64,000 bases of DNA from Rhodospirillales bacterium (GTDB lineage Bacteria > Pseudomonadota > Alphaproteobacteria > Bin95), in assembly GCA_038143065.1 (NCBI GenBank), contig JAYQLI010000035.1, positions 896,001 through 960,000 on the forward strand, read 5' to 3'. Shown here piece after piece: positions 45,791 to 63,866 of the stretch. Under the pieces are notes generated by a model that had not been told where the DNA came from, ran no database searches, and saw only the letters and a program-made list of their open reading frames with translations. The position numbers and the translations under genes were made by a program. How positions within the stretch are numbered: the first letter of the stretch is position 1; each line of letters starts with the position of its first letter.

Positions 45791-47645
45791 ATGTCAGCCA
45801 TCACTAATGATCCAAAGACTGGTCGTAAGCGCTTCAATACGCGCGCTGCAAAAGCGACTGAAAAAATAACCGGCAAGGGTTATTCCGCGATTGAAGATGA
45901 AAAACTAAAAACTCTTCCACCCCCTCCACCCGGCGCAAAATTCTCTGCCGAAGAACAAGAAAAATACAAGGCCTTTAAAGAAGCTCGCCAAGGTGCAGCT
46001 GACTACATGCGGATGGAAGGTGATTTTGCACATTACCTAGAGGGATGTTTACTCTCCACCGCTCCAGTACCTCGGGAGTCTCTTACGGACGAATGTGAGG
46101 TAGTCATAGTTGGTGCCGGATTTGCTGCTCTCTTACTTTGGTACAAACTATCAAAAGCCGGCATAACAGACATACGCTTTTGCGAAAAAGGCGGAGATGT
46201 GGGCGGTACTTGGTATTGGAATCGTTACCCTGGCATAGCGTGTGATGTCGAAAGTTATTCGTATCTGCCTTTGCTAGAAGAGATGGGCTACATCCCTTCT
46301 ATGAAGTTCGCATCTGGATTTGAAATCCTCGAATATTGCCAGATGATTGCAAATAAGACCGGTTTCTATAACCAGTGTCTTTTCCACACAACCGTGGAGG
46401 ATACCATTTGGGATGAAGGCTCAAGACGCTGGACTATAAAAACTGACCGCGGTGATGCGATGAAAGCGCGTCACCTCATTCTAGCGAATGGTATCCTTAC
46501 GACTCCTCGCCTTGCGCGTATTGATGGCATGGAAACCTTTAAAGGTGAAAGTTTCCATACCTCCAGATGGAATTATCACGTAGATCTCGAAGGAAAACGT
46601 GTTGGAATAATTGGAACTGGTGCAACTGCTGTCCAAGCGGTTCCTGAACTCTCTAAAATTGCCAGTGAGTTGTTTGTCTTCCAGCGCACTCCATCCTCAG
46701 TTGATGTTCGTGACCAACGGGCAACAACCGATGAGGAACGCGCGCAATGGGCCAATGAGAAAGACTGGTCAAAAAAACGACGTGATCGATTGGCAATGAT
46801 TGATTCAGGTCGTGTCGCCCTCCAAGGCAACGATGCTTTCCTCTCTGGTAAAGAAAAAGATTACAAGGTCAGAAAAACTCATACAGGGACGCTATCAGCC
46901 GAAGAGCGCATTCAGGCCCAGCTAAATACTAACTTCCGAATAATGGAGCAGATCAGAGCTCGCGTTGATAGCGTAGTTGATGATCCCGCAACTGCAGAAT
47001 CCCTGAAGGCTTTTTATCCTTATGGATGTAAGCGCCCAACATTTCATGATGAATTTCTCCCCGCCTTCAATAAAGAACATGTCCATTTAGTCGATTGCGC
47101 TCCTCACGGGGTTAAGCAAATAAATGAAGTTGGCGTGGTTCATGATGGAAAAGAGTATCCACTGGACGTATTGATTTACGCTACTGGCTTTGAGTGGATG
47201 GCAAAATCTACCTTCGCTTCTATTGTTGGGCGCGGTGGTCGTAGCCTCAATGAAAAATGGGATACCGAGGGGGTTAAAACCTTCTTGGGCATCCATTCCG
47301 AAGGTTTTCAAATTTGTTTATTCTATCTGGCCCCAAGGCGGTGGTGGTCAATTTAACTTCATTCGCGGTATCGAGAGCCATACTGACTATGTCACCTGGC
47401 TTCTAACAAAAATGCGCGACAACGGGCAAAACCTAATCGATATAAAATCAGACCCAGAAAATGCGTATGCCCAACATTGCGCGGAAGCAGATCTGTTAAC
47501 TCGCCCTCTTCGCGACTGCTTGAGTTACTACAATGGAGAAGGTGCAGCAGCACCAGGAAGCCTTGCATACTATGGCGGACCAAAGAAGTGGCATGAGTTA
47601 AGGAGTGAAGCTCAAGAAACTCTTGCACCTTATATCTTCGCCTGA
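45791..47645 (+). CDS. Baeyer-Villiger monooxygenase with N-terminal extension (frameshift near 47305)
   Basis: GAGFAA, GGTWYWNRYPGIACDVESY, FKGESFHTSRW fingerprint, CKRPTFHD, YYNGEG. Confidence 0.92.
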
Positions 47646-47667
47646 CGCATTTACGCCAGGCGAAGAT
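47634..47667. terminator. Hairpin between convergent genes
   Basis: ATCTTCGCCTG-12 nt-CAGGCGAAGAT, a perfect 11-bp inverted repeat over the BVMO stop; weak T tail. Confidence 0.5.
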
Positions 47668-47745
47668 TTCACAGCATTAAATTCCGCTAACGGCTCAATG
47701 CTGGCAGCTTACATCGTTTATTCAAATTATAGAGAGAAAACGCTA

Positions 47746-49182
47746 TCAGCCAGCTAAGGATAAGGCGCGAGCCAGAGGCCAAAGTTCTTCTGCCATTTCA
47801 AGGTTCATAACTTCGTCATAGACTCGTTGTGCCTTTGACTTCGACACAGCGCGGGTCGCGTTAGCCCAAAATTTTTCAGCTATATCATCACTCGACAGTG
47901 GGTTAGCATCGGAGCCACGATTAACGGCTTCACGGTGCTCAATTGTGCGCCCATCTTTTGTGCGAGCAATCAGTTTACCGGAGTAGTACCTTGGAAAAGC
48001 TGTATCGGGATCATCTTGCCAATCGACTTTCGCAGCAATTGCTAAAGCTTTCTCATCGTTGATGGCGTCAGCATCCAGCTCATCTAGAGTGAATCGACCG
48101 CGCGTTAGGCTAGTAGCCACAATATAAGGAATTGAAAATTGCGCATCGTATGCATTTTGTGGTCTTCGCTTCTGAACAAGGGGTTCACAAACCACAGCAG
48201 CCTGGGTGGGATGAATAAAGGCAGTAACACTGTCGACATTATCCGCAGTTAAGCCTTGGCTCATAAGTGCGAGCGTCGCATCTGCAAAAGCATGATTAAA
48301 GTGGCAGGCCGGATAAGGTTTAAAACCAACATTCTCTAATTCCCACATTTCACCCAGACCTGCGGTACACATTGCAAGATTTGCTGAATTTTCCTGGCCA
48401 AGATAGAGATTGAAGAGGCCATAACGTCCTTCATACGCCTGGCTAGGCCCTTTAAATCCCTCTTTTGCAAGAGCAGCAGCAGTGATTGCTGAGGTCGCCG
48501 CCCAACCTGGGTGCATCCTCTTAGTCCAGGCTCCATCAGATAAGAATTCGAGATTTCCAGAAGACTGAGACAAAGCAATTCCCTGAGCATCTTCCATTTG
48601 CTTCGGCGTAAGATGTCCAAGTTTTGCGGCAGACAGCGCGGCACCGAAAACACCTACCAAACCAGTCGGGTGATAGCCACGAGAGTGAAAACCACCCTGA
48701 GCGGCTGCACCAATACGCGCCGAAACCTCAACTCCGATGAGGTATGCAGCCATCATTTCTGATCCGCTTGCGTCATGCCGCAAGCCCTGAGCAAAGGCGG
48801 CGGCAAGAGCAGACGCACTCGCGTGGATCACTCCATCGGTATGAGTATCGTCAAAATCTAAACCGTGAATAAGTGTTCCGTTCAATAAAGCTTGATCGCG
48901 TACAGGCAATGCCATGTCAAAGCCGATTACTGGATAGCCTCCATCACCGCCCAATGCTCTAAGAGCATTAGCTGCACGTTGGCCAAATTCAAATGTTGTT
49001 GATGCCAGTGCAATTCCAAAACAATCCAGGATATGCAGTTTAGCTCGTTCCACTACATGGCTTGGAGCCTCGTCAAGGCTAAAGTCAGCTGCAAACGCCG
49101 CCAGCGAGGCAGAAATAGTTGAATGGCCTTCAAGAATACTTGATGATGAAGGAAGCTGTTCTGGCTTTGAGATAATGTTCAT
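47746..49182 (-). CDS. MmgE/PrpD family protein
   Basis: ALLNG.LIHGLDFDDTH, GYHPTG, KRMHPGWAA, KPYPACHF.H, AQFSIPY. Confidence 0.92.
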   Translation of the reverse strand: MNIISKPEQLPSSSSILEGHSTISASLAAFAADFSLDEAPSHVVERAKLHILDCFGIALASTTFEFGQRAANALRALGGDGGYPVIGFDMALPVRDQALLNGTLIHGLDFDDTHTDGVIHASASALAAAFAQGLRHDASGSEMMAAYLIGVEVSARIGAAAQGGFHSRGYHPTGLVGVFGAALSAAKLGHLTPKQMEDAQGIALSQSSGNLEFLSDGAWTKRMHPGWAATSAITAAALAKEGFKGPSQAYEGRYGLFNLYLGQENSANLAMCTAGLGEMWELENVGFKPYPACHFNHAFADATLALMSQGLTADNVDSVTAFIHPTQAAVVCEPLVQKRRPQNAYDAQFSIPYIVATSLTRGRFTLDELDADAINDEKALAIAAKVDWQDDPDTAFPRYYSGKLIARTKDGRTIEHREAVNRGSDANPLSSDDIAEKFWANATRAVSKSKAQRVYDEVMNLEMAEELWPLARALSLAG

Positions 49183-49321
49183 AGATCGGACCTTTATTCA
49201 GCTGAAACTTGAAACCAGACCTCTCCGTCTCTCGAGAGAAAAAAATGCAAAAGTATCAAATATGATTCTACTCTATCATGACCAAACCTTCCCTGGCTAA
49301 TTCGCAAGGTTCTCAATTAAG

Positions 49322-50191
49322 TCAGATATTGGAGCTTACGGCCTCGGCTATGGCTAGCCTGCGCTTTGCTTTTTCATAGATGGGATAATCAATAAAATAA
49401 CCATCAACTTGGATAGATGCAGAACCTGCTGCCTCAGCGGATTGAAAAGCATCTATGACCCTACGTGCATAAGCTACTTCTAAATCGTCAGGCGTGAACG
49501 CTGCGTTAGCAGTTGGTACCTGGCTTGGATGAATACACAATTTTCCTTGAAAACCAAGGTCTCGAGCTCTCTCTGCTGAAGCCTGAAAAGCTTCACTTTC
49601 ATTCAAATGAATAAAAACAGTATCGATCGGAGGTTCAATCCCTGCAGCCCTACTCTCCATTACGCAAGTAGCGCGAGCAAACTCAAGTTCCGTCTCACCT
49701 AAACTCCAGTTGATACCAAGATCAAGCGTGTAGTCACCCGCACCAAAAGCAACTCGCCTTACTCGTGAACTGGCCCCAACAATATTCCCAATTTCTTTAT
49801 GCCCTCTAGCTGTTTCAATTATGGGGATCAGGTCAATTTCCCATTCGGAAGCTTATTTTCACGCTCAAGTTGAGCAATTTAGCCAATCAGCTGTTTTGAT
49901 TTGATCCGCATACTCGACTTTTGGCAAAACAATGCCATCCAACCAAGGACCGATAACCTCAGTTAAATCACCAAAACAATGAGGCGTCTCCATACTATTA
50001 ATGCGAACATAGCCCAAACATCGACGCGAACGTTTTAAAGCTTCAACAACGATTGCACGTGTAGCAGGCTTCTCCGCCTCAGCTACAGCATCTTCCAAGT
50101 CGAGGATTACCGCGTCAGCCCCGGCATCAAACACTTTTGCAACTTTGCGCTCATGATCTCCTGGCGCAAACAACATTGTTCTAAGTGGCAT
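49322..50191 (-). CDS. CitE/HpcH-HpaI family CoA-ester lyase (frameshifted)
   Basis: RTMLFAPG, DAVILDLEDAV, YVRIN, LPKVE, GFQGKLCIHPSQV, VDGYFIDYP. Confidence 0.9.
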
Positions 50192-50342
50192 CGACCGCTC
50201 CTAATAGACTTAGACCGGGATGATCATTAACGAACACACAGGACCGTGCAACTGATGATTTGCCAATGGTTTTTGAAACCTCATAATGCAATCACGGTTG
50301 AGCATTAATTGTGAAATTCGGAAAGCAGCATTGGAGGTTTTC

Positions 50343-51201
50343 ATGACAGAGCCATATTCCTGGATTGATGGAGAATGGATATCCGGAAACCCGCCTATAA
50401 TTGGGCCTTTAACTAACGCTGCATGGATGGCCACCGTAGTTTTTGATGGTGCTCGTGCTTATGACGGTCTCGCCCCTGATCTCGACCTTCATGCCGAAAG
50501 ATGTATTGCTTCGGCTCACGCTCTTGGCCTTGAGCCGCAGGTAACGGCAAAAGAAATACAACGTCTTGCGGTAGATGGCCTCTCACATTTCGCTTCAGGT
50601 ACAGCAGTCTATATCCGCCCGATGTTCTACGGTGACGAAAGGATGGTTGATCCCTACGACAACTAAATTCTGCCTCACGCTATTTGAACTCCCAATGAAT
50701 GCACCAGATAAAGGGTTATCGATCTGCAGGACCACCCGAGTTAGGCCAACACCGCTTGCAGCTCCAACCGACGCCAAAGCTGCGTGTCTTTATCCAAATG
50801 CTCACCGTATGCTCAAAGAAGCTATGAGCCTAGGTTTTGACGCTGCTGTAGTTGGGGATGCAAACGGGAACGTCGCTGAACTAACAACTTCGAATATATT
50901 TCTAGTTAAGGACGACGTCGTATCAACACCTGTACCAAACGGCACATTCCTGAATGGAATTACACGTCAAAGAACCATCAAACTTTTATCGGAAGCTGGA
51001 ATAAAAGTTGAAGAACGTACGATAGATTTTTCTGAATTAGACACTGCAGACGAACTTTTCTCGACTGGAAATGCCAACAAAATTCAACCAATTTCGCGTT
51101 ATGAACAGCGTTCATTTCAGCTAGGGCCGACAGCGCTTAAAGCCCAAAAGTTATATCGCGACTATGCAGAGACTCACGGGAAATTGGCGAATTTTTGCTA
51201 G
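50343..51201 (+). CDS. Class IV (branched-chain amino acid-like) aminotransferase (frameshift near 50640)
   Basis: VFDGARA, PDLDLH..R, YIRPMFY, AKAACLYPN, E...SNIF, TP.PNGTFLNGITRQR. Confidence 0.9.
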
Positions 51202-51246
51202 AAGTCAGACTAGAAAAACTATCATACAACGACGAACGGACAATTA

Positions 51247-52384
51247 TCAGACGCAGTATGTTTTGAGTGGTGGCAGCCATTAAAAGCGACCGAACAGTAG
51301 GTCGATGTGTATGCTCCAGCAGATAAAAAGTCGACCGTATCGCCTGGCTTAAGATCGTCTGGAAGGTTGTAAGCTGTCTCTTGATAAAGCACATCCACTT
51401 CATCACAAGTCGGTCCAGCAATAATCACCCTACTGGTATCGCCTTGCCCGTCTTTTGATGTGCGAATTCTATACTTTATCGCTTCGTCCATAGTCTCAAT
51501 GAGGCCACCAAATTTGCCAACGTCAAGATAGACCCAGCGTGGCCCATCTTCCATTTTATGAGACACGAGAACTACTTCACTGCGGATCATTCCAGCATCC
51601 GCAACTAAACTGCGGCCAGGCTCTATAAAGGACCTCCAGAGACGATTTCCAAAATGCTTATGCAGTGCAGTAGAGTCAATGCAGAAGCATGTTCTTCATG
51701 AGATGCGGCTTCTGTTAAATAATGGCCAGGCAACCCTCCGCCTACATTAAGCAGACGAAGATTCACGCCACGCTCGCGTAAGCTTGTGAATAACATTGCT
51801 GCCTTACCAACAGCTACATCCCATTCACCTACATCGCGCTGCTGAGAACCCACGTGAAAAGAGAGACCATATGGATCAAGACCCATTTGCCCAGCACTAA
51901 CAAGCAGTTCTTCTGCCATGGCTAAAGAGCAGCCGAACTTGCCTCCCAATGGCCAGTCTGCTGTCTTGGACTTTTCAAAACGAAGTCGGCAGTAAACTCT
52001 AGCTCCCGGAGCCGCGACTGCTAGTTTCTCAAGTTCACCCTGGCTATCAAATGCAAAAAGGCGAACACCAAGAGCATACGCCATGGCTATATCGCTCTGC
52101 TTCTTTACAGTGTTACCAAAGGAGATGCGGCTTGCAGGCGCACCTGCAGCTAGCGCTTCTCGAATTTCATAAATTGACGCTGTGTCAAAGCTAGAACCCA
52201 TCTCAGCCAGCATGCTCATTATCTGAGGAGCCGGGTTGGCTTTCATAGCGTAAAAGATGCGAGCCTGGGGCAGAGAACGTGCCAAGGCATGGTAATTTTC
52301 TCTGACCATGTCTAAGTCGATAACAAGGCATGGAGTAGCAGGACGCTGGTCAGCAAGAAATGTTTCTATGCGCGGTGTCAGCAA
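51247..52384 (-). CDS. Fold-type III PLP ornithine/lysine decarboxylase (frameshifted)
   Basis: FYAMKANP, FD.AS, KFGC, SFHVGSQ, NVGGG, EPGR, AGPTCD..D, GAYT. The corrected tail is FNGLPPLKTYCV*. Confidence 0.92.
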
Positions 52385-52520
52385 TATCCCTAAAGCAAGA
52401 GGTAGAACGACGGACGAAGTCGGGCGTGGACCCCGAACCGGCTGCCGCCCCGCCGCCGGTCCCGCGGTGGAGGCGGGGTCCAGCCTGCAAACGCGCTTTG
52501 GGGCGTGCGTTTCAGATTAG
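52385..52520 (-). ncRNA. Structured 5' leader of ornithine decarboxylase (speF-leader-like cis element)
   Basis: Very GC-rich segment with nested helices TGGACCCCG/CGGGGTCCA and ACCGGC/GCCGGT plus a 5' hairpin, lying between the predicted promoter and the start codon. Confidence 0.55.
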
Positions 52521-52527
52521 GATGCGC

Positions 52528-52556
52528 GGTATATTAGGTTCTTCTAACAAACGCAA
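52528..52556 (-). promoter_or_regulatory. Putative sigma70 promoter for the decarboxylase leader
   Basis: TTGCGT-17 nt-TATACC on the minus strand. Confidence 0.5.
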
Positions 52557-52572
52557 CTGTTTCAGATTATTT

Positions 52573-53556
52573 TTATTGCGCCCGAACGACACACTGCTCA
52601 ATATCACCAAAAGGCATTGAACCTGTGTGAGTTTGATAAGCAATTCGCACCCTGTCGTTAAACTTCAGAAATGGGGTTCTAGGCTGCCCTCTTCAATGAT
52701 TTCAATCATTCGTGCCTCTGCGATGCAAGAAGAGCCCACAGAACGATTTCGATTAGAAACTGTACCTGATCCAATGACTGTGCCTGCAGAGCCTTCGAGT
52801 ACGAGCAGCATGAGCAATCAATCGGGGAAACTCGAAGTTCATATCTATCCCGGCATCCGGTCGACCAAATTCTTGACCGTTGATTTCACACACCATTGGG
52901 CCAATCAATTTTCCACCATCCCATGCATCCCCGAGTGCATCAGGTGTAACAACAACAGGAGCAAAAGCACTAGCGGGCTTACCTTGATAGAAGCCAAACC
53001 CCTTCGATAATTCCCCTGGAATTATGTTCCTAAGAGATACATCGTTCACAATGGTAATAAGCTTAATATGTTTACCAGCCTCAGCCTCTGTTACGCCCAT
53101 GGGCACATCATCCAGGACAACTGCCACTTCAGCTTCAAAATCAATTCCCCATTCATCATCGTTGAAATCAATCGGATCTCTACATCCTTTAAAGTCATCT
53201 GAGCCGCCCTGATACATAAGTGGCTCTTCTAAAAACGTAGTTGGCATTTCAGCGCCCCTCGCTCGGCGAACAAGCTCCATATGATTGAGATAAACACTCC
53301 CATCAGACCAATTAAAACATCTTGGTAAAGGCGCTGTTAGGCGAGAAAAATCTTCTAATTTGAATCCATCCTTTAGTTTACCCAGACCCAAAGCATCCGA
53401 GGCCCGAATAAGCTCTGGCTCTATTGCAGCCCAATTATCTAGTGCTGACTGCAGTGTTGGAGCGATTTGCGGCACACGAACAGCATTTCGTAAATCATCA
53501 GACACAATTACTAGAACGCCGTCTCGGCCCTCTTTTAGAGATGCTAATTTCATCAA
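52573..53556 (-). CDS. Fumarylacetoacetate hydrolase family protein (frameshifted)
   Basis: MKLASLK.GRDG.L, DGS.YLNH.ELVRRARGA, IDFEAEVAV, NDVSLRN, KPASAF.P. The shifted tail GSGTVSN...FG.IEQ.V ends at 52573. Confidence 0.9.
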
Positions 53557-53760
53557 TTAAATCCAGTTTTTTCAGTCTTCATACTGCCACGTGTGGAGCT
53601 AAATAAATATCCAAATTTTAAATCCTAGTATTTAATAGAATTTTTTCATATAATTTTTCCAGTGGGTTAAAACTAATCCATAATAATGAAAAATTTTTCC
53701 TTAATTATATTTTTGAGGAATTAATTTTGAAATATTTGTAAATAATTGGAGTAATTTATA

Positions 53761-54783
53761 TTGCGTTTAATTAAAGAAGCTGAAGAAATAAGTGAAATTG
53801 CATTTGGATTCATGGCGTCAAAAGCCCTTTTTGCAGCCCTTCATGTTGGTATATTTACTAAATTATCTGAACGACCACGTTACGCTTCCGAATTAGCGGA
53901 TGAAGTAGGTGTCCCCGTAAACCGCATACAGACCCTTCTAACAGCGCTAACTGCCCTAGGCCTTGTATCGAGCCAAGGTGGGCTATTCGAAAATTCACCT
54001 GGAGCCGAAGCCTTCCTTGTTGAAGGAGCAAAATATGATTTTGGTAATTATCTAAGACTGCAGATAGACCGCCAGATGTTTCCAATTATGACCGGCCTCG
54101 AAGCAGTTGTAACTGGAGAAAGCGCAACATCGCCGGTTATTGAGTCCTATGCTGATTGGTTCTCAGACCCAGAGGAAGCACGACTTTATAGTGAGAGCCA
54201 GCATGCTGGATCGCTTGGTCCAGGCCGCAGTGTTGCCCGTTTATTGGATTTATCAAAAGCAGAAAAGCTAATGGATGTGGGCGGTGGCACCGGAGCATTT
54301 GCCATACGTCTTTGCGAAACTAACCCAAAACTTACCGCCACTGTCCTCGACTTCCCTAATGTAGTGAAGCTTGGCGAGGAATACGTTGAAGAAGCCGGAT
54401 TATCTGACCGGATTTCTTTCATAGCAGGCAATGCTTTGGAAGATGAATGGCCAGACGGTCAGGACATTGTATTGATGTCATACTTGTTCAACGGTGTGCC
54501 AGGGGATGCAATTCCAGATTTAACACGACGTGCTTTTTCTAGCTTAAGGAACGGTGGGCATTTTTTTGGTACATGATTTTATTGTTGACGATGATCGAAG
54601 TGGCCCTCCTCTTGCCGCCCTGTGGCAACTGCAGCATCTAGCTTTCACTCCAGCAGCAAAATCGCTAACGCCGACATGGATCGCGGGTATGATGGAGGAG
54701 TAGGATTTACAGAGGTTAAAACGCACTCGTTAATCCCTGGAATGACACGCCTTATGCATGGTCGAAAATTCACAACCACATAG
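53761..54783 (+). CDS. dsyB: DsyB-like MTHB S-methyltransferase, DMSP biosynthesis (indels near 54565 and 54700)
   Basis: AEEISEIAFGFMASKALFAAL, YDFG.YLRLQ.DRQM, SYADWFSDPEEARLYS.SQHAGSLGP, DVGGGTGAF, LMSYLF.GVPG, HDF.V..DRSGP.LAALWQLQH.AFTP match my recollection of alphaproteobacterial DsyB. Confidence 0.85.
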
Positions 54784-54880
54784 AAGTGTGATTGACCATT
54801 GCCGATTTTTTTTTGGCTTCTATTGTTAGAATTCGCATCGGCTTTTAACGCCTTGGAAAATAACTGAGGACTCTCTCTCC

Positions 54881-55147
54881 ATGACAGTCAAAGTGGAAAT
54901 CTACTCAAGTATGTGGTGCCCATTCTGCTTTCGGGCCAAAAAATTGCTTCAGTCTAAAGGCGTGGACTTTATAGAAATTGATGTGGATGGTGACCCGAAG
55001 GTCCGTGAGCTGATGAGAGAGCGCGCGGAGGGCCGGCACACCGTACCCCAGATCTTCATTGATGATGTTGGTATTGGAGGCTCTGACGATCTTGCTCAAT
55101 TAGATCAATCTGGCAAATTAGACAGCATGTTGGCAGGCGCAGAATGA
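54881..55147 (+). CDS. grxC: Glutaredoxin 3
   Basis: CPFC, TVPQIFI, GGSDDL. Confidence 0.95.
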   Translation: MTVKVEIYSSMWCPFCFRAKKLLQSKGVDFIEIDVDGDPKVRELMRERAEGRHTVPQIFIDDVGIGGSDDLAQLDQSGKLDSMLAGAE

Positions 55148-55977
55148 CCAAGTTCAAGGCTGCATGCATCCAAAATACCGCCGATCGTGATCCGGCGCCA
55201 AGCATGGCCAAGCTAAGTGAACTTATTAAGCGTGCACGCGATGTTGATAGCGACCTTATTATGACACCAGAGGTATGCCATATGCTGGAGCCAAGACGAA
55301 AGCTTGGCGTGGAAAAAACACAAATCGAAACTGCTAACGAGTCACTAGAAATATTCCGCAGCCTAGCGATTGAGACGGGGGCATGGCTTCTAATCGGATC
55401 TATGGCAATTAAATTGCAAGATGAAGAACGGATGGCAAACCGTTCTTTTTTAATAAACCCCATAGGTGAAATCATAGGCCGATACGACAAAATACATATG
55501 TTTGATGTCGATGTGGGTGAAGGCGATAGTTATCGGGAATCGAATGGCTATCGCCCTGGAGAAAGCGCTATTATCCAGAAATTGCCTTGGGGTAATTTAG
55601 GGATGACTATCTGCTACGACATGCGGTTTCCGAACTTGTATCGCGACCTGGCTAAAGCTGGTGCAGACTTTTTAGCCGCTCCCTCCGCTTTCACAGTACC
55701 AACCGGACGAGCTCACTGGCACGTGTTATTGCGAGCTCGCGCAATTGAAAATGGCTGCTTCGTATTCGCCCCCGCTCAAGTTGGCGAGCACGCAGAGGGC
55801 AGAAAAACGTATGGCCATTCTCTGATAGTGGACCCATGGGGAGAAGTGTTAGCCGATGGAGGGGACGACGTTGGTTTTGTTACTGCGGAAATAGATGTAA
55901 CCAAAGTAAAAGAAGCAAGAAGTCGAGTGCCATCCCTGTTTAATGACAGACCTTATTCTGCGCCCAAATTAGATTGA
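55144..55977 (+). CDS. Carbon-nitrogen hydrolase (Nit1 / deaminated glutathione amidase-like)
   Basis: TPE, YDKIHMFDV, ICYDMRFP, RARAIEN, TYGHSLIVDPWG. ATGA overlap with grxC. Confidence 0.92.
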   Translation: MTKFKAACIQNTADRDPAPSMAKLSELIKRARDVDSDLIMTPEVCHMLEPRRKLGVEKTQIETANESLEIFRSLAIETGAWLLIGSMAIKLQDEERMANRSFLINPIGEIIGRYDKIHMFDVDVGEGDSYRESNGYRPGESAIIQKLPWGNLGMTICYDMRFPNLYRDLAKAGADFLAAPSAFTVPTGRAHWHVLLRARAIENGCFVFAPAQVGEHAEGRKTYGHSLIVDPWGEVLADGGDDVGFVTAEIDVTKVKEARSRVPSLFNDRPYSAPKLD

Positions 55978-56061
55978 TTTATTAGATAAAAAGACTTCCA
56001 ATACTGAGGGCCTAAATACCGACCTCCTTGTTCTTGAGAATTTTTCCTCAGAGGTCGCTCT

Positions 56062-56077
56062 TGGCATCTGAAATGCC
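56062..56077 (+). promoter_or_regulatory. Possible sigma54 (-24/-12) promoter or palindromic operator
   Basis: TGGCAT-CTGAA-ATGC: GG-N10-GC spacing, one mismatch to TTGC, 44 nt upstream of the ATG. Confidence 0.35.
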
Positions 56078-56120
56078 GCAGTCATAATCTTACGCAACAA
56101 GAGCGAGTGGATCATAAGTA

Positions 56121-56902
56121 ATGTCTAGTTCCGACCCTACGGTGACGCGAGAGAATGACGGGGCCACAGCGGTACTGCGCATCTCTAACCCAAAACGGCG
56201 CAATGCTTTTTCCCCGGAGGTAAGAGGAGCCCTGGTCGGGCATATGAACGATATAGCAACTGACGACGCTATTCGCAGTATTGTTATCACTGGAGCTGGT
56301 AAAACATTTTCTGCAGGTGGTGACCTGTCAACCATGCAGGATATGACTGCATTCGAAGGTAGAGAACGCATTCGCGCAGGGCGCGCAATGGTCGAAAGCA
56401 TATGGCGGAGTGAAAAACCAGTTGTCGCTGCAGTTGAGGGTTTCGCATTTGGAGCAGGCCTCTCCCTTGCGTTGCTTGCCGACTGGATCGTTGCAGCTGA
56501 AGATGCCTCTTTTTGCGCCTCCTTTGGCCGTGTTGGGTTGATGGGTGATATGGGCCTTTTTTGGACATTGCCTCAAAGAGTTAGCGTCGGCAGAGCTCGA
56601 CGCATATTGATGCTAGCCGAAGTAGTTACAGCGCAAGAAGCACTTAAGATCGGCCTGGTTGAAGAAATATCTAACAACGGCAAAGCTCTAGACCAAGCGA
56701 TGACAAAAGCTCGAGTAATGGCAGAAGCAGCCCCCTTCCAAATAGGCTGACGCGTGAGGCACTCGGACAATTCCCGGCTACCTTAGATGACATGCTGGCT
56801 TACGAAGCCCATGGACAGGGCCTCTTATTTACTAGCGCAGATACTAAAGAGGGGCTTGCATCATTTTTTGAAAAGCGCCGCCCTGTATTTCAAGGAGCCT
56901 GA
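56121..56902 (+). CDS. Enoyl-CoA hydratase/isomerase 1 (frameshift near 56735)
   Basis: FSAGGDL, AVEGFAFGAG, F.RVGLM.D.G; shifted tail EGLASFFEKRRPVFQGA*. Confidence 0.9.
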
Positions 56903-56906
56903 AATA

Positions 56907-57685
56907 ATGGCTGAAAAAATGACAGTTAATGTGACACGAGAAGGGCCAATTGCAGTTCTTGAGATAGATAATGTTTCACAACGAAACGCATTAACTATGG
57001 CAGTCAAGGCTGTTCTCGTTCCCGCTCTCAGAGAAGCAGAAGAAGACGCAGATGTTCGCTGCATAGTCATCACAGGCGCTGGCAACACCTTCTCAGCAGG
57101 TGGAGACGTTAGCCTTTTTGGTGATATGACGCCCGCTAAGGGACGTCAAATAGTCTTTGATCAACGTAACTTCCTTCACCTTATGCTCCGAGGAGACACC
57201 CCAATTGTTGCTGCGGTTGAAGGTTTTGCTTACGGAGCTGGTTTTGGCCTTGCGATGGCCGCTGACTATATCGTCGCTGCTGAGGACGCAAAATTTTGCG
57301 CCGCTTTTAATAAGATTGGATTAATGCCAGATGGGGGCCTTCTCTGGACTTTACCCCAACGTGTAGGCATGGGCCGTGCAAAGGACATGCTTATGTGTGC
57401 AACAGTAGTCGATGGTGTTGAAGCAAAAAGGTTGGGCATTGCTGACCAACTAGCCAAACCTAATCATGCATTAAATGCAGCCATGGATAGAGCTGCAGCT
57501 TTTGCTTCAGCTGCACCTCTCGCTGTAGCCACTATTAAGTCAGCTTTTGCCCGTTACCCTCTTGATCTTGAGCAGGCCTTCGCAATCGAAAGTGATGCGC
57601 AGCCTGCATTGATGCAGAGTGAGGATGCTAAAGAAGCACGGCGTGCCTTTTCGCTAAAGAAAAACCAAACTTCCGAGGAGCCTGA
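56907..57685 (+). CDS. Enoyl-CoA hydratase/isomerase 2 (indel near the C-terminus)
   Basis: FSAGGDV, AVEGFAYGAG, FNKIGLMPDGG; tail ..KKKPNFRGA*. Confidence 0.9.
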
Positions 57686-57688
57686 GAA

Positions 57689-58459
57689 ATGTCTAATCCA
57701 GGCTGCAGCCTAGAAATTGCAAATGGCATAGCTACCATCACGATGTCGGATTCAAAGAAAAGGAACGCTCTTTCAACACCTGTTGTTACCGACTTAAACA
57801 ATCATGTCGATACCGCACTAACGCATCCAGACGTCCGGGTAGTCATTCTTGCAGGAGCAAATGGTATATTTTGTTCCGGAGGCGATATCTCAGGGTTTGA
57901 CAATGACGACTTACCCTTACGTCGTCGGATGCCACGATTACACCGTTTATGCGGAAAAATAGCCCACTCAGAAAAACCATTTATCGCTGCGGTTGAAGGC
58001 GGAGCTTTTTGGGGCGGCCTCTCTTGCTCTTTTGGCGGATCAGATAGTTGCCGCTGACAACGCGCGTTTTTGTGCCAGCTTTGTAAAGATTGGCCTTATG
58101 CCAGATCTAGGACTTCTATCCACCCTGCCCGCACGTGTTGGTATTGGCCGTGCAAAGGAAATCCTGATGCTGGGGGAAGATGTGACAGCAGTTACCGCAC
58201 TTGAAGATGGCCTCGTGGATGAGTTGTCTCCCCAGGACAAGCCCTGACAAGGGCTATGAACTTAGCAAACGAATTTGCAAGTATGGCACCACTCGCTCTT
58301 GCTTACACAAAAGCTACTGTAATGCGCTGGCCAATGACACTCCCTCAAGAGCTCGCCTGGGAAGCTCAAGGTCAGGGTCTATTATTCACCACCGATGATC
58401 TTCAAGAAGGGCGACAAGCATTCTTTGAAAAAAGGAAGCCAAATTTCAGTGGGAGTTAG
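57689..58459 (+). CDS. Enoyl-CoA hydratase/isomerase 3 (two frameshifts)
   Basis: FCSGGDI, AVEGGAF, FVKIGLMPDLG, EGRQAFFEKRKPNFSGS. Confidence 0.88.
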
Positions 58460-58740
58460 ATTTAAAAATTGTCCGCACCTGAATGTCTAAACATATAAAT
58501 TTTCCAAGTTTAAATTACTTTGAGATGCCCTTATTTTATTTGACTATTTAGATTAATTTAAAATTATAACATACTGTATTTAATTAATTTAAATTTGGTT
58601 TTTAGGATAATTAAATTTGGGATTTCCTAAAAATTGTTACTAAAATATCTTTAGTTGATTCTACCATATTTCCGGTGGGACCAATCATCTGTATGTTGTC
58701 CCCTCAATTCGAAATTATTCTCAGCAGGCAGGAATTTAAG

Positions 58741-59853
58741 ATGGCGTCTAATAAAAAGCTTTTGGTATTGCCCGGTGATGGTATCGGACCAGAGGTTGTC
58801 GGCGAAGTAAGGCGAATAGTTGATTGGATGGATCAGCGCCGCCACGTGTCTTTTGATATATCGGAGGGTCTCGTTGGAGGCGCCTCTATAGACGCTCATG
58901 GCACCCCTCTTACAGACGATACTATGGCAGAGGCAATGAATGTCGACGCTGTATTATTTGGGTCAATTGGTGGACCAAAATGGGAAACTCTTCCTTTTAA
59001 CTCACAACCAGAACGTGGGCTTCTGAGACTTAGAAAAGAGATGGATCTCTTCGCCAACCTACGCCCCGCTATGGTCTTTGATGCTCTAGCAGATGCCTCA
59101 TCACTAAAACACGAGCTAGTGGCTGGCCTAGATATTATGATCCTCCGAGAGCTCACGGGAGGCGTGTACTTTGGCGAGCCACGCGGGATAGAAACCCTCC
59201 CATCTGGAGAACGGAGAGGTTTTAACACGCAATCTTACACAGAGACCGAAATTGAGCGCGTTGCGCGGGTTGGCTTTGAATTAGCCCAAAAGCGGAGCGG
59301 CAAACTCTCCTCTGTGGAAAAAGCAAATGTTATGGAGTCCGGAGTTCTCTGGCGCGAGGTAGTCTCTTCAATTGCTGGTGATTATCCAGATGTAACGCTG
59401 TCTCATATGTACGCTGATAACTGCGCTATGCAGATTGTTCGTAACCCAAAACAATTTGATGTGATTGTCACCGACAATCTATTTGGGGACATTCTATCAG
59501 ACTGCGCAGCAATGCTCACAGGTTCTCTGGGGATGTTACCATCTGCTTCTCTAGGCGCCGAAGACCCAACCACTGGTAGAAGAATGGCCCTATATGAGCC
59601 AGTCCACGGTTCTGCACCTGACATTGCTGGACAAGGCAAGGCTAACCCGCTGGCGGAAGTATTAAGTTTTGCGATGTTACTCAGGTATTCCTTTGATATG
59701 GGCGAAGACGCCGACATCATCGAAGCGGCAGTTGGTAATGTGCTGGGAGCTGGGATCCGAACTGCGGACATAGCTGCTCCAGGTCAGACAGCAATCTCCA
59801 CTTCAGAAATGGGCACCGCGCTCCTCAAGGAGCTCGATAAGCTGGCTGCGTGA
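58741..59853 (+). CDS. leuB: 3-isopropylmalate dehydrogenase
   Basis: [53 protein letters not shown]. Confidence 0.97.
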
Positions 59854-60683
59854 TCCGCACACGCTTTGCCCCGAGCCCCACGGGCCGCCTCCATCTTGGT
59901 CATGCATATTCGGCATGGTTTGCATGGAATGCGGCTCTTCGGGCAGACGGTGAATTTCTACTGCGCATTGAAGATCTAGACCAAACTCGAAGCCGTGTTG
60001 AATATGAAGCCGGCATAATTGAGGACCTAATCTGGCTGGGGTGTCACTGGCATGGAGGAGTAGTTCGCCAGTCAGAGAAAGCGCCCGCCCATCAAGAATA
60101 TCTCACTAAGCTTATAAATTTGGGCCACGTTTATCCCTGTTTCTGTACGCGCAAAGATATTCTTAGAGAAATTGCCACTGCAGGTGATGCACCTCATGGA
60201 CCAAGCGGCCCGGTATATCCAGGAACTTGCCGCTCTATCCCTCTTGAAGAATCAGCAGAACGCATAGCAGCTGGAGAGAGCCACGCTCTCCGCCTGAACA
60301 TCAGGCAGGCTGCACGAGAGGCAGGCCCTATAAGATGGAAAGATATTGATGCGGGAACCTTTGAGGCCAAGCCTGAACGATTTGGTGATATTGTACTAGC
60401 CAGAAAAGACGCACCGGCTGCCTATCACCTTGCTGTTGTGATCGATGACGCTACATCAGGCGTTACACTCGTAACTCGGGGCGACGATCTCCTTGCTGCC
60501 ACAGACATCCAGGCCCTGCTTCAAAGACTTCTAGGTCTTCCACAACCTCTATACCACCATCACCGACTTTTACTTGGCTCAAATGGCAAGCGCCTGGCAA
60601 AAAGAGACCAATCGGCAACAATCCAGTCACTCAGAGAAGCCGGTTATTCGCCAGACGAAGTCCTTAACAAATGTCAGATATAA
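59850..60683 (+). CDS. gluQ: Glutamyl-Q tRNA(Asp) synthetase
   Basis: [46 protein letters not shown]; 277 aa with no anticodon domain. Confidence 0.92.
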
Positions 60684-61658
60684 TTCTTCCAATTCGCTCG
60701 ATGTTACCCAGTGTTTCCGAATGTTCCTGACCTGGCCATTGGAATCGTAGCAATATGTGATCAGTGCCCGTTATCTCCGCATAGCGGAGTATCTCATCCT
60801 TCGCTTCTTCAACATCTCCAATGATAAATCTACCTTTGGCAAAATCCCCAAAACCAGACGCAAAATCTCCACCGGCAGTCTCCCCTGCCCCCAAGAACTA
60901 TAGGCCTGATACTTGTACATTAGAGGCCCTCGGCTTGCTTCCTCCGCATGAGCCTTATCACGACCAACGAAACATTCTCGAATTACGGGGCAAGCGACGT
61001 TCGGATCAAGTCCATTAGCCACCCGTTCCTCGCGGAAAGCAGATAAGTAGTTAAGAATAGATTCTGTTGAAAGTGTTGGAGCTACGCACCAGGCATCAGC
61101 TAGACGCGCGGCTCGACGCACCGACGCTTCTACATCCCCACCCAGCCAAATTGGAGGTCTTGGCTGTTGCTTCGGTTGCACGGCAGGTTTTGCACCATCA
61201 AGTGTGAAATGCTTACCTTGAAAATCCACAGTCTTTTCGGTCCATAGACGCTTGATGATCTCCACGCCCTCTGTCAAACGGCCAACCCGTTTTTTCATAT
61301 CCACACCCATGGCCTGGAATTCTTCTGGCCGATAGCCTAATCCAGCACATAGCACATAATTACCATCAGTTAGCCAATCGATGGTTGCGCCTTCCTCCGC
61401 TGCCAACACGGGGTTCATCATAGAAAGTAAGAGGACACCTGGCCCGAGCTGCATTCCTTTGGCTTCCTCTGCCAAAGCACCCATAAGCGGAACTGTCTGA
61501 AACATGCCCATCGGGCCAGTCAGTAAATGCTGGCCAATAATCAAGGAGCCAAACCCAGCTTCCCTTGCTGCTCGCACCTGATCTTTGAGAGAATAGAGCA
61601 CGTCGTCTGGACGTTCCTCCTCAGACCATTGCATGGCTGTAAACATCCCTATCTTCAT
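60664..61658 (-). CDS. LLM-class flavin-dependent oxidoreductase (frameshift near 60890)
   Basis: GF.SL.IGQH, NPV..AEE.ATID, GLGYR.EEF..MG, P.QQPRPPIWLGG, RRAARLAD. Confidence 0.9.
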
Positions 61659-61720
61659 GGCCGAGCCTTCCTTTTGTACAATCGGAGAATCATGTTATCT
61701 GATTCTCGCGGTTCCAATCT

Positions 61721-63030
61721 ATGGCTCGACAACTTCATATTAATCTTTTTGTCCAATCACGGGGGCACCATGAGGGAAGTTGGCGACACCCGAAGGCAAC
61801 TCCGAAAGCCCTTACCGACATAAGTTATCTGCAGGAAATGGCTCAGTTAGCTGAGCGTGGAAAACTAGATTCAATATTCTTGGCCGACCAATTGAATGTT
61901 ACTCAAGATGCCACCCGAGCGCCTCGAAATTGGCTAGAACCAATCACCGTGCTTCCAGCCATTGCAGCCGTGACAGAGCGCATAGGCCTTATCGCAACTG
62001 CTTCAAGCACTTACTGGAGCCGTTCAATCTCGCCCGACAATTTGCCTCAATAGATCATATTTCAGGAGGAAGGGCAGCTTGGAACATTGTTACATCATGG
62101 TCGGCAGCTGCAGCGAGTAATTTTGGGGATGATAACCAAATTAGTCATGCTGACCGGTATGTGAGGGCAGAGGAATACATCCAAGTAGTCAAAGCTCTTT
62201 GGAGCAGTTGGGACGAAGGAGCAATTGTAGATAATAGAGCCACCGGTGAATATATCCGTGAGGGCAGCTTTCGCCCAATTAATCACAAGGGAACGCTCTA
62301 TTCTGTTGCAGGGCCCTTGAATGCTCCACGAGGACCGCAAGGCAGACCAGTTTTGGTTCAAGCAGGTTCATCCGACACCGGAAAAGCTTTTGCAGCGAGA
62401 CATGCAGAAGCCGTGTTCACCGCGCACTTAGAACTTAAGACTGCTAAAGACTTTTACAGTGACTTAAAATCAAGGGCATCAGAATTTGGCAGAGATCCAA
62501 AGCATGTGATTATTCTACCAGGCCTATCCCCTATGATCGGGTCAACAGAGTCAGAGGCACGACAATTTTCTGAAGAACTTGATGCCCTTACAGATCCGGA
62601 AGTAGGCCGCAAGCGGCTATCAGCACGATTTGGTGGTTATGACTTCTCGCACCTTCCATTAGATGTTCCTCTCAGACCGGAAGACCTTCCCGATCCAGAA
62701 ACAGTCGAAGCCGCTCGCAGTCGCGCAGAGACAATCGTGGGTTTTGTTAAGCGCGAGCAAGCGACTCTCCGTCAGTTACTTGCCAAGCTTGCTGGCGCCA
62801 GAGGACACTTTACTTTCGCCGGCACGCCCAACCAAGTTGCAGATTTGATGCAGACGTGGGTTGAAGCAAAGGCGGCGGACGGTTTCAATCTAATGCCCCC
62901 TGTCCTGCCCTGGATGGCAGAGACCTTTATTGATGAGGTGCTTCCAATTTTACGAAAGCGAGGTCTGTTCCGGGAAGACTATTCGGGGAGCACCCTCAGG
63001 GATCATTTAGGATTGCCTAAACCAAATTAG
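61721..63030 (+). CDS. NtaA/DmoA/DszA-family FMN-dependent monooxygenase (frameshift near 62015)
   Basis: GHH.GSWRHP, AERGKLD.IFLAD, AR.FAS.DHISGGRA.WNIVTS, PQGRPVL.QAGSS, DGFN, RGLFR.DY...TLR.HLGL. Confidence 0.92.
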
Positions 63031-63203: not shown

Positions 63204-63866
63204 ATGGATTGGAATCAACCCATCGATATCTATTGCGAAAGGTTAAACCCAGAATTCTGGGCGGAGCCTGTTAATGCTATTACCAACCTAGCCTTTGTAG
63301 CCGCTGGTGTCTGGGCTTTTCTTTATGCAAGAGCTCGCAGTGTCCTTGATCCTGCAATCATAGGACTGTCATTTCTTTCAACTTGCGTAGGTGTGGGATC
63401 GTTTCTGTTCCACACTTTTGCTGTCCAGTGGGCCGGCATCGCCGATGTTGGTTCAATTGCTCTATTTATGATTGCAGGAATGTTGATTGGTCTTAGACGT
63501 TTGTTTGCCATCAGTTGGCTTTGGGCAACGATTGCAGCAATTGGTTTTGCAGTAGTTATTTTTGTTGGCCCTGAACGTTTTAATATCGAGATTCCAGCTT
63601 TAGGCGAAGGTAACCGGTATCTACCAGCCATAATAGCTCTTGGCATGATATCAGGTGCGTTGGCACTGAAGCGTCGTGAGGCGTCCAGGCCGATTGCCTC
63701 CGCAGCTTGCATTCTCAGTCTGTCACTTATTTTTAGAACCATTGACGCTGGTATATGTCAGGCTTTTCCTCTCGGAACACACTTCCTTTGGCACATTCTC
63801 AACGGGTGTGTATTCGCCTTAATTATGTATTCGATAATTAGATATCAAATTCATAGTAGTGATTAA
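63204..63866 (+). CDS. Ceramidase-like (CREST superfamily) membrane protein
   Basis: DIYCER....FWAEPVNA.TN, GSFLFHT, RTID..IC..FPLGTHFLWH.LN. Confidence 0.88.
   Translation: MDWNQPIDIYCERLNPEFWAEPVNAITNLAFVAAGVWAFLYARARSVLDPAIIGLSFLSTCVGVGSFLFHTFAVQWAGIADVGSIALFMIAGMLIGLRRLFAISWLWATIAAIGFAVVIFVGPERFNIEIPALGEGNRYLPAIIALGMISGALALKRREASRPIASAACILSLSLIFRTIDAGICQAFPLGTHFLWHILNGCVFALIMYSIIRYQIHSSD

What the first reader, a model, noticed from the sequence alone, without database searches (positions are those of the whole stretch)
53761..54783. dsyB homolog: the organism is a likely bacterial DMSP producer
Seen: after correcting an extra T in the run at 54561-54567 and a missing base near 54700, this is a ~340-aa methyltransferase with blocks such as SYADWFSDPEEARLYSESQHAGSLGP and AALWQLQHLAFTP. 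Known (from memory): these blocks characterise DsyB, the MTHB S-methyltransferase of the methionine-transamination route to DMSP in marine Alphaproteobacteria. The ORF track truncates it at 271 aa, so it could be missed or called a generic O-methyltransferase.
Basis: partly seen in the sequence, partly recalled or inferred. Interest (0 to 1): 0.78.

Follow-up and report, generated by a model that had tools for sequence, protein, structure and literature searches.

The report
Real dsyB masked by assembly errors
This is a copy of dsyB, the already described bacterial gene for the key step in making the marine sulfur compound DMSP; its two frameshifts are assembly errors, so this estuarine alphaproteobacterium likely makes DMSP, and most genomes of its order carry the same gene.

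Summary
Confirmed and largely ordinary. Read through its two breaks, 53761-54783 (+) encodes a 340-aa methyltransferase. Its best PDB match by far is Nisaea DsyB (E 1.7e-99; next 1.5e-23), and it is 60% identical to the Roseibium aggregatum IAM 12614 DsyB. All 6 published MTHB-binding residues and 5 of 6 SAM-binding residues are kept; the sixth change is shared with R. aggregatum. Both indels are assembly errors: contigs of 4 of 4 laid runs lack them, a public 340-aa protein is otherwise identical, and 11 of 16 local genes are frameshifted against an intact congener. DMSP production is inferred, not measured. The neighbourhood is not conserved, so there is no pathway cluster. The scan found an ordinary dsyB before, on other DNA (e1-7306083).

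The parts
53761..54783 (+). dsyB coding sequence, 340 aa when read through two assembly errors; TTG start, TAG stop
53748..53751 (+). GGAG, likely ribosome-binding site, 9 bases before the TTG; TTG start shared with G008 and G005
   Evidence: sequence
54145..54222 (+). Block SYADWF...AGSLGP with Y130, Y143, Q147 (MTHB site) and S151 (SAM site)
54561..54567 (+). Break 1: run of 7 T, one base too many (assembly error)
54614..54652 (+). Block AALWQLQHLAFTP with H292 (codon 54635-54637; His291 of Nisaea DsyB), after break 1
54695..54696 (+). Break 2: one base missing (assembly error)
53557..53760 (.). AT-rich (22% GC) spacer shared with the divergent FAA-hydrolase-family gene; likely holds the promoter. 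Sigma-70-like matches are at chance level and there is no TGC-N3/4-GCA box
54801..54817 (+). Weak terminator-like hairpin between dsyB and grxC; not above chance (2 found, 1.2 expected)

Best explanation
The locus is a single-copy dsyB gene that is intact in nature, and its product likely uses SAM to S-methylate MTHB into DMSHB, the key step by which this bacterium would make DMSP from methionine. Shown here: the reading frame, the two indels being assembly errors, membership of the DsyB family, and the kept site residues. Inferred from Nisaea DsyB (PMC10989797): SAM binds first and closes the enzyme; MTHB is held by Y97, Q101, Y130, Y143, Q147 and H292; the methyl group passes to the thioether sulfur by proximity and desolvation, with no metal or catalytic base. 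Inferred from the published pathway and not located here: a methionine aminotransferase and an MTOB reductase upstream and a DMSHB decarboxylase downstream, encoded elsewhere in the genome. The likely role is stress protection (salt, low nitrogen) at low cell levels, as in Nisaea.
For: Similarity: PDB best hits are 7WDQ/7WDW DsyB, E 1.7e-99 for the truncated piece with the next protein at 1.5e-23, and 5.5e-127 for an intact 97% homolog. Identity to R. aggregatum IAM 12614 DsyB is 60.3% over 335 aa; two assayed enzymes, Nisaea and L. aggregata DsyB, are 59% identical to each other. Residues: 6 of 6 MTHB and 5 of 6 SAM residues equal Nisaea's, and all 12 equal R. aggregatum's; 7 of 7 paralogs at 26-32% identity lack the MTHB set. 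Tree: inside the 67-row DsyB group, 100/100 against 7 paralogs. Intactness: contigs of 4 of 4 runs from 4 studies lack the extra T and carry the missing base; one 1690-base contig spans both breaks with only 4 other differences. P0133 equals the read-through except at the start residue and the two X. 14 of 15 listed cluster members reach both breaks and all 14 run through without a gap. 23 frameshifting indels in 11 of 16 local genes against G008. 59 synonymous against 7 non-synonymous codon differences from G008. Papers call dsyB a robust reporter of DMSP synthesis.
Against: No activity or DMSP was measured. In the careful tree the gene sits in a 21-row subclade (95/94) with Minwuia, OM182 and relatives, whose relation to the Roseibium and Nisaea groups is unresolved, so it is not shown to nest between assayed enzymes (the unfinished quick tree did nest it). 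Asp223 of Nisaea is Asn here. The other pathway enzymes were not identified. Run X1 may be the source sample, so it is not independent. All laid data were contigs, not raw reads. The RNA-run contigs are about 93% identical, from a relative, and cannot prove transcription.
Confidence: 0.88

Rival explanations
1. The enzyme is a true MTHB methyltransferase, but the cell stops at DMSHB or makes negligible DMSP because it lacks a DMSHB decarboxylase or barely expresses the gene.
For: No decarboxylase was identified here. The start codon is TTG in this clade, whereas 39 of the 41 more distant named loci begin with ATG or GTG in my start calls. 4 of 9 congeners lack the gene, so it is dispensable.
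Against: Papers report that dsyB and its transcription track DMSP production. The gene is under purifying selection. A salt-marsh RNA run holds contigs of a relative's copy (weak).
Confidence: 0.06
2. This subclade of the DsyB family has shifted to another methyl acceptor and is not a DMSP-synthesis enzyme.
For: I found no assayed member in the 21-row subclade. Searches for dsyB with Minwuia or OM182 found 0 papers.
Against: All six MTHB-binding residues are kept, while paralogs replace them. Identity to an assayed enzyme (60%) equals the identity between two assayed enzymes (59%).
Confidence: 0.04
3. The indels are real and the gene is a pseudogene in this strain.
For: The assembly shows two frameshifts, and 4 of 9 congeners lack the gene, so loss does happen.
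Against: Both indels are absent from contigs of 4 of 4 runs. An otherwise identical intact protein is on record. The same kind of indel hits 11 of 16 local genes, many in or beside short single-base runs.
Confidence: 0.02

Closest known systems
DsyB of Nisaea denitrificans DR41_21 (PDB 7WDQ, 7WDW; PMC10989797)
   Same: Colinear over the whole length with one 1-aa insertion; 11 of 12 listed binding residues identical
   Different: Asn224 for Asp223; 340 against 337 aa; falls in a different subclade from the Nisaea sediminum / Thalassobaculum group (N. denitrificans itself was not in the tree)
DsyB of Roseibium (Labrenzia) aggregatum IAM 12614 (locus L025; described as functional in PMC7494906)
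   Same: 60.3% identity over 335 aa, same 340-aa length, 12 of 12 site residues
   Different: Different neighbours; ATG rather than TTG start; has a TGC-N3-GCA box at -109 that this promoter lacks
DsyB-like protein of Minwuia thermotolerans (P0020; no assay found)
   Same: Closest protein from a named species: 65% identity, same 21-row subclade
   Different: Ala for Gly at Nisaea position 173; no paper with both terms found
Class I O-/N-/C-methyltransferases with a dimerisation domain (RedM, SibL, MmcR, BchU; PF00891 + PF08100)
   Same: Same domain architecture
   Different: Only E 1e-23 or weaker; below the NCBIfam cut-offs of every model listed

Membership tests
DsyB (bacterial MTHB S-methyltransferase) | At least 40% identity and 70% coverage to an assayed DsyB (screen used in PMC7494906, PMC13310141, PMC11306096) | tested here: met
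   60.3% over 335 of 340 aa; even the truncated ORF gives 61.5% over 265 of 340
DsyB (bacterial MTHB S-methyltransferase) | MTHB-binding residues Tyr97, Gln101, Tyr129, Tyr142, Gln146, His291 | tested here: met
   Y97, Q101, Y130, Y143, Q147, H292
DsyB (bacterial MTHB S-methyltransferase) | SAM-binding residues Ser150, Gly173, Asp196, Asp223, Ala224, Ser239 | tested here: met
   5 of 6 identical; Asn for Asp223, as in R. aggregatum IAM 12614
DsyB (bacterial MTHB S-methyltransferase) | Groups with DsyB and not with other methyltransferase paralogs in a tree | tested here: met
   67-row DsyB group, 100/100 against 7 paralogs; the paralogs are my outgroup, not the published non-functional set
DsyB (bacterial MTHB S-methyltransferase) | Nested between assayed enzymes | tested here: inconclusive
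   Open fork joins its subclade, the Roseibium group and the Nisaea/Rhodobacterales group
DsyB (bacterial MTHB S-methyltransferase) | Intact ~337-346-aa reading frame in the organism | tested here: met
DsyB (bacterial MTHB S-methyltransferase) | SAM-dependent conversion of MTHB to DMSHB | not testable with these tools
   needs an enzyme or complementation assay
DMSP-producing bacterium (transamination route) | DMSP accumulates in cells | not testable with these tools
   needs a culture or enrichment
DMSP-producing bacterium (transamination route) | Aminotransferase, MTOB reductase and DMSHB decarboxylase present | not tested
   no reference sequences in hand; DsyD, DsyGD and MmtN were not searched
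DMSP synthesis gene cluster (as around Gynuella dsyGD) | Pathway partners kept beside the methyltransferase | tested here: not met
   Window neighbours recur beside dsyB in 2 of 8 family loci examined (the two closest), in none of the other 6 and in neither of 2 named loci

The most novel reading that the evidence does not exclude
A whole alphaproteobacterial order, seen here only through metagenome-assembled genomes, is a mostly DMSP-producing lineage that surveys have not named: 31 of 37 genomes carry dsyB in three genus-level groups with no assayed member that I could find, and its small-genome estuarine branch (this organism) is a widespread coastal bacterial DMSP source that also carries a DMSP-lyase-type cupin.
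Probability: 0.5. Interest if true: 0.45.

Novelty: new member of a known kind. Interest (0 to 1): 0.27.

Why it matters
The gene and its chemistry are known, so the locus changes little by itself. It adds a likely DMSP producer from an estuarine and coastal lineage and points to an order in which 31 of 37 held genomes carry dsyB, a group worth adding to qPCR primers, reference sets and taxon-level DMSP budgets. It is also a clean warning for this genome: 11 of 16 local genes carry false frameshifts, so other 'pseudogene' or 'split gene' calls in it should be distrusted.

Tried and rejected
Pathway cluster: the upstream aminotransferase (PRK13356), ornithine-decarboxylase-type gene and FAA-hydrolase-family gene are tempting partners, but they lie on mixed strands and stay beside dsyB only in G008 and G005; rejected. 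PhaR-type box (lead from e1-5245207): no TGC-N3/4-GCA in the 250 bases upstream here or in G008, although it sits at about -109 in several Roseibium loci and a PHB_acc_N-domain gene is on C35. Promoter and terminator scans were at chance level. DMSP catabolism by dddP and dmdA: matches exist in the assembly but on small contigs (C47, C39, C36). dddP was found in 0 of 5 congeners, with no positive control ringing in that search. G008 has a dmdA over the cut-off, but its region matches C36 at only about 67% and not over the gene itself. These genes cannot be safely assigned to this organism. Naming the lineage: LeuB's nearest named match was Oceanibaculum nanhaiense at 79%, and a paper search for an order name recalled from memory gave nothing I could tie to it; family and order remain unnamed. 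The third row was given in the wrong orientation and is disregarded. The gap in RNA-run cover over the spacer proves nothing, since diverged spacer DNA would not lay either. No structure prediction was run, because a solved DsyB aligns over the whole length. One supplement of PMC11306096 (file 4, scanned pdf) could not be searched; it may bear on which DsyB proteins were assayed.

Full report
Observation. A TTG at 53761, preceded by GGAG, opens a 271-aa frame that ends just after a run of seven T. The adjoining frame carries the next 43 residues, and the first frame resumes to a TAG at 54781-54783. With X at each break the product is 340 aa.

The breaks are assembly errors. Congener G008 has an intact gene and differs by exactly one base at each break. 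I laid 4 of the 24 listed runs on 52600-56100. In all 4, from 4 studies, the contigs leave out one base at 54561 and put one in at 54695-54696; in X1 a 1690-base contig spans both sites with 4 other differences and 2 gaps. X1 may be the source sample; X5, X10 and X15 are other studies and somewhat different strains. A public protein, P0133, equals the read-through except at the start residue and the two X. Of 15 listed members of the 121-member cluster, 14 reach both breaks and all 14 run through without a gap. Against 17 kb of G008, the window shows 23 frameshifting indels in 15,606 coding bases, in 11 of 16 genes; one or two may lie at gene edges. Codon differences in dsyB are 59 synonymous and 7 non-synonymous. 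That such errors are typical of unpolished long-read assemblies is my background knowledge; the sequencing method is not given.

Identity. The truncated ORF matches Nisaea DsyB (7WDQ, 7WDW) at E 1.7e-99; the next of 48 PDB sequences scores 1.5e-23. The 42-aa piece behind the first break matches DsyB at 3.2e-13. Identity to the DsyB of R. aggregatum IAM 12614 (L025, taken to be the gene described as functional in PMC7494906) is 60.3% over 335 aa. PMC10989797 gives 59% between Nisaea and L. aggregata DsyB. It lists six MTHB-binding and six SAM-binding residues. The window protein keeps all six of the first set and five of the second; Asn for Asp223 is shared with R. aggregatum (the script used N. 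sediminum P0085 as numbering proxy). Seven paralogs at 26-32% identity lack the MTHB set. Pfam and NCBIfam give only generic methyltransferase labels, also for the R. aggregatum protein.

Tree. 74 rows were used; I left out two fragments and three duplicates. In the finished tree the protein lies in the 67-row DsyB group (100/100), in a 10-row clade of congeners and unnamed proteins (100/99), and in a 21-row subclade (95/94) with Minwuia, an OM182 and another gammaproteobacterial sequence, and genus g2. An open fork joins this subclade to the Roseibium group, the Nisaea/Thalassobaculum/Rhodobacterales group and genus g3. Family membership is firm; nesting between assayed enzymes is not shown.

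Mechanism. Shown: frame, family, residues. Inferred from the Nisaea structure and mutants (PMC10989797): SAM binds and closes the enzyme, MTHB is placed by the Tyr/Gln/His pocket, and the methyl group passes to sulfur by proximity and desolvation, giving DMSHB. The published pathway runs Met, MTOB, MTHB, DMSHB, DMSP. The other three enzymes were not located. Salt and nitrogen-starvation induction is known for Nisaea and only assumed here.

Context. dsyB sits between a divergent FAA-hydrolase-family gene and grxC plus a carbon-nitrogen hydrolase, behind a 22%-GC spacer. This order holds in G008 and G005 only; six other family loci and two named loci have other neighbours. In G001, G002, G003 and G006 another gene lies before grxC (NMT1-like in the 3 of 4 that I scanned). 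There is no pathway cluster. The genome holds one dsyB and one distant, also broken, paralog.

Distribution. In the order, 31 of 37 genomes match at E <= 1e-80 (this genome included; genus g1 5 of 9 others, g2 8 of 10, g3 17 of 17); three of the six without it are 99-100% complete. Among 16 genomes of other families in the class, none had more than a ~30% paralog. These genomes are kin and not independent. The closest named records are metagenome-assembled and titled Rhodospirillales or Alphaproteobacteria bacterium; whether the order has cultured members I cannot say. The laid runs with a recorded habitat are from an estuary (X1, X10) or a salt marsh (X15). The salt-marsh RNA run has contigs over dsyB at about 93% identity, a weak hint of expression in a relative.

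Other DMSP genes. A DMSP_lyase-family cupin (PF16867, over the cut-off) is on the same contig and in 5 of 5 congeners, with only weak similarity to DddQ structures (E 2e-4) and no NCBIfam call. dddP and dmdA matches are on small contigs of doubtful origin.

Literature seen. PMC10989797: abstract, passages, section 6, part 1 of section 13, supplement search. PMC7494906, PMC13310141, PMC7039863, PMC13360808: passages. PMC11306096: passages and supplement search (one file unreadable). The 2017 discovery paper was not read. dsyB in Rhodospirillales, in MAGs and in non-alpha groups is already in print. Searches for dsyB with Minwuia or OM182 found no papers; two searches listed 4 and 1 papers, of which I opened one (PMC13310141). 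Since I could not name the order, I cannot show that its dsyB is unreported. The scan's index held no look-alike sequence but one earlier ordinary dsyB on other DNA.

Verdict. Observation confirmed, interpretation supported, new member of a known family. Interest 0.27.

Noticed in passing
window 45880-62866: Frameshifting indels in 11 of 16 genes relative to G008 (BVMO, citrate-lyase-like, aminotransferase, ornithine decarboxylase, FAA hydrolase, three enoyl-CoA hydratases, two luciferase-like genes, dsyB). Split genes in this assembly are probably artefacts.
   Followed up: yes
G000 contig C35 against the other 51 contigs: C35 is 2.86 Mb, about the size of the whole genomes of the two closest congeners (2.6 and 2.8 Mb), while the assembly is 4.63 Mb. 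The 11 small contigs tested have tetranucleotide distances of 0.11-0.19 against a C35 median of 0.07 (max 0.18). Much of the extra 1.8 Mb may be foreign.
   Followed up: partly
L087:1477-2031 (G000:C35 about 1848300-1848900, - strand): 184-aa cupin of the DMSP_lyase family (PF16867), syntenic in G008 and present in 5 of 5 congeners, with or without dsyB; only distantly like DddQ structures.
   Followed up: partly
G000:C47:5158-6480, C39:15669-16992, C36:19106-20205: Two dddP over the NCBIfam cut-off and a frameshifted dmdA on small contigs; assignment to this organism is doubtful.
   Followed up: partly
L055, L060: Two gammaproteobacterial (one OM182) DsyB-like proteins group with genus g2 of this family (96/90), which suggests a horizontal transfer; direction not tested.
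   Followed up: no
L014-L020 (genus g3): The dsyB of genus g3 does not group with those of g1 and g2 of the same family, so the family's dsyB may have more than one origin; not tested with a one-clade test.
   Followed up: no
L024, L025, L029, L030, L032, L033, L035, L036, L039, L046: A TGC-N3-GCA box at about -109 to -119 before dsyB in 10 of 11 Roseibium/Labrenzia loci; absent in this window.
   Followed up: partly
G000:C35:2333957-2334930: A ~29% paralog of the same methyltransferase fold, also split in this assembly, conserved across the family with its own residue set.
   Followed up: no
window 63204-63866: 220-aa membrane protein with a sub-cut-off Ceramidase (PF05875) match.
   Followed up: no
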